This document shows positions 5,425 to 6,533 of a DNA stretch of 26,705 nt, one piece after another. The DNA lies in IMG/VR virus record IMGVR_UViG_2872185964_000003; one strand, written 5' to 3'. The notes below the pieces were generated by a model, which worked only from the letters and a program-made list of their open reading frames with translations, ran no database searches and was not told where the DNA came from. The DNA comes from a virus (taxonomy: Duplodnaviria > Heunggongvirae > Uroviricota > Caudoviricetes). Positions within the stretch are counted from its first letter, which is position 1; every line of letters begins with the position of its first letter. A program made the translations under genes and the position numbers.

Positions 5425-6533
5425 TTATTCTGTTTCTGCTATCCATTCCGGGATTTTTGCTTCAAGTTCAAGCTGCGTGGTAAAGCCGCTGTTATCAATG
5501 GTGTGCTCGGCTTTTGCAATAATCCAGTCCTGATAATCAATCTCGCTTTTAAAGCCTGTCACTGTGCCATGCATTTCGGGATAGAGTTCTGCACGACCAC
5601 GCGCCAGCGTGATGGAGAATGATGCGGCTCCGCGTTGTAGCTGCTGCCACTTTGCCGCCGCTGCGCGTCTTGCTGCCTGCTCGTTCTGATAAGTCTTGCG
5701 TAACACAAACACGTTGCCTTCCGCACCTTCCATATAGTCGCCTTCCCGACTGCTGCTTTTCTCCTTTTTGGGTTTTGGCGGTTTGCGGCGTTTCACGCTG
5801 ACTTTTTTCTTTTTCCCGTAATTAAGATCAAGCCAGTAGGCGCGTACCCCCGTATACGCCTCGCGGTCAGCAATGCGGAACTGATGGCGATCGCCGCTGC
5901 TGCGTGTAATGGCGAACGAGGGCAACGGCTGCCCCTGTGCGTTCACGCCACCACCTGGCATGATGAATAACAGATTGCCGCTTTTTACCGTGGCGATTGC
6001 TCCCAGCATTTCCGCCATGCGCGTAAGAAAGGACATGTCGCTTTCTTCGGTCTGGTCGGCGTGGTCGATTTCGATATCCATCAGCATTTCGCTGATTTGC
6101 GGTTTCAGACCGTATCGATGAGCGATGGCGGATACCACACGCTCAACGGTCACATCATGCCAGGACACCTCACGTTTAACGTTAAATTCATCCCGAAAAT
6201 CTGCGCTTCTGGCTGAAACAGTCAGCCTGTCCGGCGGTCCTTCGTGAGCGATTTCATCAACAATGTAAGTGCCTTTTTCTGTCAGCGGTTCCCCTTTCCA
6301 GCCAATGAGAACCGTCAGACGCGCGCCCCGTGGCGGTAGCTGCAACTGACCATCCGCATCATCCAGCGTGATGGTGAGCTGGTCCGCCTCAAATCCCCGG
6401 TTGTCGGTCAGTTACAGGCTCATCAGGCGCTCCGCCACGCCTGACAGCGTTTTACCCTCCGAGAGAATATCAAAATCCGGCATTTTCACGGGGCCGTGCC
6501 CTGACTGAGCAATTGCATGGTGGTGTCGGTCAT
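5425..6533 (-). pseudogene. D: P2 gpD-like tail / late control protein, disrupted (frameshift plus TAA nonsense)
   Basis: ATG at 6533 with GGGAGGG RBS. The frame switches near 6489, then reads ...LSGVAERLMSL-TAA(6414..6412)-LTDNRGFEADQLTITLDDADGQLQLPPRGARLTV... into the 306-aa ORF 5425..6345, which resembles gpD. Confidence 0.8.

What the first reader, a model, noticed from the sequence alone, without database searches (positions are those of the whole stretch)
5425..6533. Premature TAA and a frame break in the gpD-like gene
Besides a probable single-base frame break near 6489, an in-frame TAA at 6414..6412 interrupts an otherwise well-conserved gpD sequence (...VAERLMSL-stop-LTDNRGFEADQLTITLDD...). 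A substitution-type nonsense codon is not a typical homopolymer sequencing artefact, so it points to real pseudogenisation.
Basis: seen in the sequence. Interest (0 to 1): 0.4.

Follow-up and report, generated by a model that had tools for sequence, protein, structure and literature searches.

The report
Real stop codon, artefactual frameshift, dead prophage
The tail-hub gene of a decayed P2/P88-like prophage in a Shigella genome carries a real, inherited stop codon, already on record in hundreds of Shigella assemblies, while the neighbouring frame break is a long-read sequencing error, so the finding is ordinary.

Summary
Both lesions are in the window as described. On the minus strand there is a TAA at 6414..6412, which is codon 41. 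A C-run at 6493..6490 is one base short and throws the frame into a TGA at codon 16.

The TAA is real. Intact E. coli and phage P88 orthologues have TCA (Ser), not CAA or CAG. All 15 independent Shigella assemblies of this prophage carry TAA, including Sanger-sequenced S. boydii CDC 3083-94. The resulting 40-aa product is on 643 public contigs.

The frame break is an assembly artefact. The window is 100% identical to CP026872.1, whose accession lies in the range of a PacBio-only Shigella series. Against close relatives the window has about 20 single-base indels. All are deletions, and most are in G/C runs: 2 of 2 six-base runs and 8 of 19 five-base runs are shortened, against 1 of 85 A/T runs of 5-8. 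These deletions occur only in assemblies I assign to that series (by accession for four of five, by inference for PTES01), and in sets that no single tree can explain. One of them breaks the essential gene pheT just outside the window.

The gene lies in a grossly defective P88-like (Xuanwuvirus) prophage, with IS2 in ogr and IS1 in the tail-tube gene. This is a routine Shigella pseudogene. Low interest, already known.

The parts
5425..6533 (-). Remnant of the gpD-type tail baseplate hub gene. The intact form is 369 codons.
   Evidence: The intact orthologue in E. coli ETEC4088 is 99.5% identical in DNA and translates to 369 aa. It matches Pfam PF05954 Phage_GPD at 60 bits against a cut-off of 30.1. 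It is 49% identical to P2 gpD, E 1e-120.
6412..6414 (-). Ochre codon TAA at codon 41 (ancestral TCA, Ser). This is a real, inherited nonsense mutation.
   Evidence: E. coli relatives have TCA. None of 1031 E. coli complete genomes that hold this 61-mer matches it exactly. TAA is present in 15 of 15 Shigella-lineage assemblies. The 40-aa product is on 643 contigs.
6490..6493 (-). C4 run where the true sequence is most likely C5. The apparent -1 frame break is an assembly artefact.
   Evidence: Ten of 15 same-lineage assemblies have C5. The 5 with C4 are four accessions in the CP0267xx-CP0268xx range plus PTES01, attributed to the same series. The distribution conflicts with the structural and SNP groupings. 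It fits the window-wide pattern of G/C-run deletions only.
6486..6488 (-). TGA reached at codon 16 in the frame of the start codon, as a consequence of the missing C.
5425..6345 (-). Residual 306-codon ORF from TTG, downstream of the TAA. Gene callers report it as 'late control D family protein'.
   Evidence: The exact product is listed in 444 blocks of the index and seen on 376 contigs, named Shigella boydii or Shigella sp..
6534..6689 (.). Divergent intergenic region between D (minus strand) and the sheath gene FI (plus strand). It holds a second artefactual deletion (G5 to G4) just after 6574.
   Evidence: The 6574 deletion is present only in L017 and L020.
6690..7874 (+). Intact tail sheath gene (FI type, 394 aa), used as the lineage marker to retrieve sister assemblies.
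2059..5176 (-). AT-rich cargo gene between D and ogr. It is 1039 aa in clean assemblies and is split into three ORFs here by artefactual deletions just after 2590 and 4861.
   Evidence: GC is 32-38% against 53-55% in the tail genes. It has no Pfam, PADLOC or PHROG match.
401..1727 (+). IS2 inserted in the ogr late-gene activator gene, with a 5-bp target duplication.
8335..9102 (-). IS1 (768 bp) in the 3' end of the tail tube gene FII. In this sublineage the adjacent genes E, E', T, U and the invertase are deleted.

Best explanation
The region is the gpD-type baseplate-hub gene of a P88-like (Xuanwuvirus, P2 relative) prophage integrated next to ihfA/pheT in a Shigella chromosome. A single C-to-A transversion (TCA to TAA, Ser41 to ochre) terminates translation after 40 residues, just before the most conserved N-terminal motif (LTDNRGFEADQL). 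No functional hub can therefore be made. This mutation is real, was fixed in an ancestor and is inherited by many Shigella strains. It is one of several inactivating lesions of a prophage that is dead anyway: IS2 in ogr, IS1 in FII, real 1-base deletions in FII, and loss of the early region. The second lesion, the missing C at 6490..6493, is not biological. It is a consensus undercall of a five-base G/C homopolymer in a long-read-only assembly (CP026872.1), of the same kind as about 20 other single-base deletions in this window. The strain's true sequence is most likely ATG...40 codons...TAA in one frame. Shown here: the sequences, their distribution across assemblies, and the error pattern. 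Inferred: that the source assembly belongs to the PacBio-only series of Kim et al. 2018, and that the truncated protein has no function.
For: TAA is real. E. coli and phage P88 orthologues are intact, with TCA at codon 41. All 15 of 15 independent assemblies carrying the same sheath allele or the same 306-aa ORF have TAA. They include CP001063.1, which is S. boydii CDC 3083-94. The exact 40-aa product, which needs an unshifted frame plus the TAA, is on 643 contigs from NCBI, ENA and Logan named Shigella. The frame break is an artefact. The window is 100% identical to CP026872.1 over the 15,874 shared bases. Against the closest E. coli relative, every single-base indel is a deletion in the window. 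The two exceptions are an 11-base stretch and one extra C that only that relative carries. Against CP001063.1 there are 11 window-private deletions, with no insertions apart from one at the alignment edge, alongside 8 substitutions. Shortening depends on run length and base: G/C runs of 6, 2 of 2; of 5, 8 of 19; of 4, 3 of 53; of 3, 1 of 297; A/T runs of 5-8, 1 of 85. Such deletions occur only in L014, L017, L019, L020 and L021, never in UAUR01, CP049281, AMKE01 or CP001063, nor in CP026762 from the same accession range. They occur in mutually incompatible sets: 6489 in {17,20,21}, 4861 in {19,20,21}, 6678 in {14,17}. L017 groups with L012/L013 and L020 with L016/L018 by structure and SNPs. 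The same assembly has a private G4-to-G3 deletion that frameshifts the last ~43 codons of essential pheT, 740 bases outside the window. IS911 and IS3-family copies show the same G5-to-G4 losses. Accessions in the range CP026774-CP026878 are cited to Kim et al. 2018, 59 Shigella genomes by PacBio. [quoted passage not shown]
Against: No reads were available, so the artefact call rests on comparison between assemblies. Homopolymers are also natural slippage sites, and two 1-base deletions in FII (just after 8063 and 8252) are real and shared by the whole lineage. A real C5-to-C4 change in a gene that is already dead would be selectively neutral. The attribution of CP026872.1 itself to the PacBio series is by accession range only, because the announcement paper was not held.
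Confidence: 0.93

Rival explanations
1. Both lesions are real. After the nonsense mutation the dead gene also lost a C by replication slippage in some strains.
For: C4 is seen in 5 of 15 assemblies. Real lineage-shared 1-base deletions exist in FII. Neutral decay is expected in a dead prophage.
Against: The C4 carriers fall on both sides of the structural split of the lineage, while their nearest relatives sequenced elsewhere have C5. All C4 carriers are in or attributed to one accession series. Window-private indels are all deletions, depend on G/C run length, and also hit essential pheT. The unshifted 40-aa product is on 643 contigs.
Confidence: 0.05
2. Both lesions are sequencing errors and the gene is intact in the organism.
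For: The assembly is demonstrably error-prone. No E. coli complete genome has the TAA.
Against: TAA is present in 15 of 15 assemblies from several projects, including the Sanger genome CP001063.1. Its products are on hundreds of contigs, mostly short ones. The errors of this assembly are deletions, not C-to-A substitutions.
Confidence: 0.01
3. The stop is tolerated or used: read-through or suppression, or a split hub made from the 40-aa peptide plus a product reinitiated at the TTG at 6345. On this reading the remnant still builds a tailocin-like particle.
For: The 306-codon ORF downstream remains open and the sheath gene is intact.
Against: ogr is interrupted by IS2 and the tube gene by IS1. 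In this strain E, E', T and U are deleted. The reinitiated product would lack residues 1-63, which align with the structured N-terminus of the R2 pyocin hub 6u5h_C. No recoding signal was looked for or noticed.
Confidence: 0.01

Closest known systems
gpD (tail protein, YP_009113094.1) of Escherichia phage P88, genus Xuanwuvirus, Peduoviridae
   Same: About 96.6% DNA identity across D, the intergenic region and the start of FI. It has the same divergent D / FI layout. The protein is 99% identical to the intact E. coli orthologue.
   Different: The P88 gene is intact, with Ser at the aligned codon. The window copy has TAA there and sits in an IS-riddled remnant.
Bacteriophage P2 gpD (NP_046784.1), essential tail protein, Pfam PF05954 'Phage tail baseplate hub (GPD)'
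   Same: 49% identity over the full length, E 1e-120. The N-terminal motif LTDNRGFEADQL is conserved. ogr lies downstream.
   Different: In P2, D is the last gene of the FI-FII-E-T-U-D operon. Here the FI-U block is inverted relative to D, and a cargo gene separates D from ogr. P2 has Thr at the aligned codon.
R2 pyocin baseplate protein, PDB 6u5h chain C
   Same: The only solved relative found by sequence (E 8.6e-41). It aligns from query residue 18 to 356, so the stop at codon 41 falls inside the folded protein.
   Different: It belongs to a Pseudomonas tailocin, not a phage, and is a distant relative.
The same pseudogene in Shigella boydii CDC 3083-94 (CP001063.1) and other Shigella; nr entries 'MULTISPECIES: hypothetical protein [Shigella]' (40 aa) and 'phage late control D family protein [Shigella boydii]' (306 aa)
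   Same: Identical TAA at codon 41, and identical IS2-in-ogr and IS1-in-FII insertions.
   Different: These records have C5, so they show no frame break.
Homopolymer frameshift artefacts of PacBio Quiver/HGAP consensus (PMC4853030; false pseudogenes in long-read assemblies, PMC10359078)
   Same: Single-base deletions in G/C runs that create apparent frameshifts and split genes.
   Different: The cited example concerns G9 runs. Here runs of only 4-6 bases are affected, which suggests low coverage or old chemistry (inference).

Membership tests
P2 gpD / Pfam PF05954 Phage_GPD (baseplate hub) | Profile match above the curated threshold | tested here: met
   PF05954 scores 60.4-60.6 bits against a cut-off of 30.1, both for the intact orthologue and for the window's 306-aa ORF. 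PHROG 52 'tail protein' matches at E 1e-164.
P2 gpD / Pfam PF05954 Phage_GPD (baseplate hub) | Full-length homology to P2 gpD | tested here: met
   49% identity, E 1e-120, residues 19-369 against 15-384.
P2 gpD / Pfam PF05954 Phage_GPD (baseplate hub) | Uninterrupted reading frame of about 370-390 codons, i.e. a functional member | tested here: not met
   There is a TAA at codon 41 in the window and in 15 of 15 sister assemblies. The window is a pseudogene member of the family.
P2 gpD / Pfam PF05954 Phage_GPD (baseplate hub) | Location in a contractile-tail gene cluster next to ogr | tested here: met
   Sheath, tube, baseplate and fibre genes and ogr are present in the window and in relatives. 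The order differs from P2 and matches P88.
Xuanwuvirus (P88-like) prophage | High nucleotide identity and the divergent D / FI arrangement of phage P88 | tested here: met
   96.6% identity over 1.4 kb that includes both gene starts. The same layout appears in 1107 E. coli genomes.
Genuine pseudogene lesion | The lesion is reproducible in independent assemblies and sequencing technologies of the same lineage | tested here: met
   This holds for the TAA: 15 of 15 assemblies, including Sanger CP001063.1, and 643 contigs with the 40-aa product. For the frame break it is not met: 5 of 15, all in or attributed to one series.
Long-read homopolymer consensus error | Deletions only, dependent on run length and base, phylogenetically incoherent, and also hitting essential genes | tested here: met
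Long-read homopolymer consensus error | Raw reads or an orthogonal technology from the same strain show the longer run | not testable with these tools
   There was no access to reads.

The most novel reading that the evidence does not exclude
The C4/C5 difference could be real slipped-strand heterogeneity within these Shigella cultures. Alternatively, the remnant could be kept for its uncharacterised 1039-aa AT-rich cargo gene, with the early stop in the hub gene acting as a lesion that locks the prophage in place.
Probability: 0.04. Interest if true: 0.25.

Novelty: already known. Interest (0 to 1): 0.08.

Why it matters
The biological significance is small. This is one more inactivating mutation in one of the many decayed prophages of Shigella, and its products are already in public protein databases.

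The practical point is about data quality. In this window roughly 40% of five-base G/C runs are one base short. Most apparent frameshifts here are therefore false, including those that split the terminase, portal, cargo and baseplate genes. Pseudogene counts taken from this assembly series would be inflated.

Substitution-type stops are trustworthy in this window and single-base frame breaks are not. This rule can be applied to other findings from the same source.

Tried and rejected
- An exact 40-mer spanning the TAA was scanned in genome contigs and gave 0 hits. This is uninformative, because the collection holds one genome per species.
- An exact look-up of the 47-aa ORF that needs both lesions found nothing on record. 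No gene caller reports it, even in the source record, so this is uninformative too.
It was replaced by the listing of cluster members.
- The Genome Announcements paper for the PacBio Shigella series is not held, and PMC8767346 has no supplements held. The strain name and serotype of CP026872.1 therefore stay unknown, and its sequencing method is inferred from the accession range.
- I asked whether mismatch-repair deficiency could produce the indel pattern naturally. I rejected this because the pattern is private to assemblies rather than to clades, and because pheT is hit.
- I asked whether the short 801-nt CDS annotated in E. coli relatives meant a shared disruption. It does not: those ORFs are intact at 369 codons.
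- Pfam, PADLOC and PHROG searches of the cargo protein found nothing.

Full report
**Observation**

On the minus strand, the gene starts with ATG at 6533 and ends with TAA at 5427..5425. Read from the ATG, the frame gives MTDTTMQLLSQGTAP and then a TGA at 6488..6486. In the next frame the text continues VKMPDFDILSEGKTLSGVAERLMSL, then TAA at 6414..6412, then LTDNRGFEADQLTITLDD. A 306-codon ORF stays open from a TTG at 6345.

**What the intact gene looks like**

The 1.4-kb region matches 1392 of 5426 complete E. coli genomes. The best match is strain ETEC4088 at 99.5%.

In ETEC4088, GDSC2BY4G and O104:H4 C227-11 the ORF is intact at 369 codons. The alignment shows exactly two disabling differences in the window:
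- one C missing from a C5 run (CCCC at 6493..6490);
- TAA where the relatives have TCA (Ser41).

The intact protein matches Pfam PF05954 'Phage tail baseplate hub (GPD)'. It is 49% identical to P2 gpD over the full length and 99% identical to the D protein of phage P88. Its only solved relative by sequence is the R2 pyocin baseplate chain 6u5h_C, aligned from residue 18. The stop therefore falls inside the folded protein, directly before the conserved motif LTDNRGFEADQL.

**Is the TAA real?**

No E. coli complete genome has it. Of 1031 genomes that hold the 61-mer, the best match is 98.4%, which is one mismatch.

An exact look-up of the window's sheath protein retrieved ten NCBI assemblies with the same prophage and the same IS insertions. 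An exact look-up of the 306-aa ORF retrieved more. Together these are 15 distinct assemblies, and all 15 have TAA at codon 41. They include CP001063.1, which is S. boydii CDC 3083-94.

The 40-aa product Met1-Leu40 needs both an unshifted frame and the TAA. It is on 643 contigs in NCBI, ENA and Logan, named 'MULTISPECIES: hypothetical protein [Shigella]' or 'Phage protein D ... Shigella'. The 306-aa product is on 376 contigs named Shigella boydii or Shigella sp.. Most of the contigs that carry the 306-aa product are 2-10 kb long. That is the size expected when short-read assemblies break at the flanking IS copies (inference).

The nonsense mutation is therefore real, and it arose by descent within a Shigella clade.

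**Is the frame break real?**

The window is 100% identical to CP026872.1 over all 15,874 shared bases.

- Direction of the indels. Against ETEC4088, every single-base indel is a deletion in the window. Two further gaps, an 11-base stretch and one extra C, are insertions private to ETEC4088. Against CP001063.1 there are 11 window-private single-base deletions. The only insertion is one at the alignment edge, and there are 8 substitutions.
- Dependence on run length and base. G/C runs of six are shortened in 2 of 2 cases, runs of five in 8 of 19, runs of four in 3 of 53 and runs of three in 1 of 297. A/T runs of 5-8 are shortened in 1 of 85.
- Distribution across assemblies. Across the ten sister assemblies, such deletions occur only in CP026866, CP026797, CP026867, CP026872 and PTES01. 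They never occur in UAUR01, CP049281, AMKE01 or CP001063, nor in CP026762.
- Incompatible sets. Position 6489 is affected in {L017, L020, L021}, 4861 in {L019, L020, L021}, 6574 in {L017, L020} and 6678 in {L014, L017}. Structure and SNPs, by contrast, put L017 with L012/L013 and L020 with L016/L018.
- The site itself. Ten assemblies have C5 and five have C4: CP026797, CP026872, CP026842, CP026815 and PTES01.
- An essential gene is hit. In the same record, 740 bases outside the window, pheT has a private G4-to-G3 deletion that frameshifts its last ~43 codons.
- IS copies are hit. The IS911 and IS3-family copies in the window show the same G5-to-G4 losses.
- Source of the assemblies. Accessions from CP026774 to CP026878 are cited to Kim et al. 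2018, 59 historical Shigella genomes generated with PacBio. Assigning CP026872 to that series is an inference from the range, and assigning PTES01 to it is a weaker inference.
- Known error mode. G-run frameshifts are a documented weakness of the Quiver consensus (PMC4853030). Long-read homopolymer errors are a known source of false pseudogenes (PMC10359078).

I conclude that the frame break is an assembly artefact. The strain's true sequence is most likely an unshifted 40-codon ORF that ends at the TAA.

**Context**

The gene belongs to a P88-like (Xuanwuvirus) prophage next to ihfA/pheT. In the Shigella lineage this prophage is badly decayed:
- IS2 (401..1727) interrupts ogr, with a 5-bp target duplication.
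- IS1 (8335..9102) interrupts the tube gene FII.
- Two real, lineage-shared 1-base deletions lie in FII, just after 8063 and 8252.
- In the sublineage of this window and CP001063, the genes E, E', T, U and the invertase are deleted next to the IS1.
- The right end is a patchwork of an IS911 fragment, an IS3-family element and integrase fragments.

The nonsense codon in D is thus one lesion among many.

**Mechanism**

A C-to-A transversion created an ochre codon, so translation ends after 40 of 369 residues. Any product reinitiated at the TTG would lack residues 1-63 of the hub. Loss of function is inferred, not tested.

With ogr, FII and, in this strain, T and U also lost, the locus cannot build a tail (inference from the gene content seen).

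**Verdict**

The frame break is not biological. The feature is already in public databases and is of low interest. Its main value is as a warning about single-base frame breaks elsewhere in this window.

Noticed in passing
window-wide; the missing base follows 259, 2590, 4861, 6489, 6574, 7988, 10874, 12899, 14399, 14635, 15513, 19197, 19815, 20849, 21120, 21697, 22045, 24128, 25831, 26304: There are about 20 single-base deletions private to this assembly, most of them in G/C runs. They split the cargo gene, tube, baseplate, lysis, terminase and portal genes into false fragments. Other frame breaks reported from this window should be distrusted.
   Followed up: yes
L020:571 (CP026872.1, about 740 bases left of the window start): Essential pheT has a private G4-to-G3 deletion in the source record. 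It replaces the last ~43 codons and is almost certainly an assembly error.
   Followed up: yes
window 2059..5176 (-): An AT-rich (32-38% GC) cargo gene of 1039 aa lies between D and ogr. It has no Pfam, PADLOC or PHROG match. PGAP names it 'MFS transporter' in some E. coli and 'hypothetical protein' in others. It is intact in the clean Shigella assemblies but disrupted by IS1 in CP026807, CP026805, CP026842, CP026815 and PSSQ01. It could be an uncharacterised prophage accessory or defence gene.
   Followed up: partly
window 5425..7874; L004:9096-15948; L032: The sheath-to-U block (FI-FII-E-E'-T-U) is inverted relative to D. D and FI are therefore divergent across a 156-bp spacer, unlike the single FI-to-D operon of P2. 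This layout is shared by isolated phages (P88, PhiR44_2, Shae_phiSM) and by about 1100 E. coli genomes, so D must have its own promoter there. The promoters were not analysed.
   Followed up: partly
L001:6425-7278, L003:6425-7278, L007:5096-5949: In several RefSeq E. coli genomes (ETEC4088, O104:H4 C227-11, VG38-53E1) the intact 369-codon D ORF is annotated as an 801-nt CDS ('VgrG/Pvc8 family') plus an antisense pseudo 'hypothetical protein'. This is an annotation artefact that mimics a disrupted gene.
   Followed up: yes
window 401..1727 and 8335..9102: IS2 sits inside ogr, with a 5-bp target duplication and a 4-bp CAGC deletion relative to a typical IS2. IS1 sits in the 3' end of FII. Both are shared by all the Shigella sister assemblies examined.
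   Followed up: yes
just after window 8063 and 8252: These two single-base deletions in the tube gene (G6 to G5 and A5 to A4) are real. They are shared with Sanger CP001063.1 and all sister assemblies, so not every homopolymer deletion in the window is an artefact.
   Followed up: yes
window 15212..18571 compared with L016 and L018: CP001063.1 and AMKE01 lack this 3.4-kb stretch, which fuses an endolysin (Peptidase_M15_4) domain to a GPO scaffold domain. The window's strain still has the stretch, so decay continued independently in sister strains.
   Followed up: partly
window 24063..26705: The right end holds an IS911 fragment, an IS3-family element (24602..25911) and two pieces of a phage integrase gene flanking it. 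The replication and immunity region of the prophage appears to be missing.
   Followed up: partly
window 17983 and 21169: Two C-to-T differences from the E. coli relatives fall on the inner C of Dcm sites (CCAGG to CTAGG, CCTGG to CTTGG). They could be 5-methylcytosine deamination or a base-calling effect. This was not resolved.
   Followed up: no
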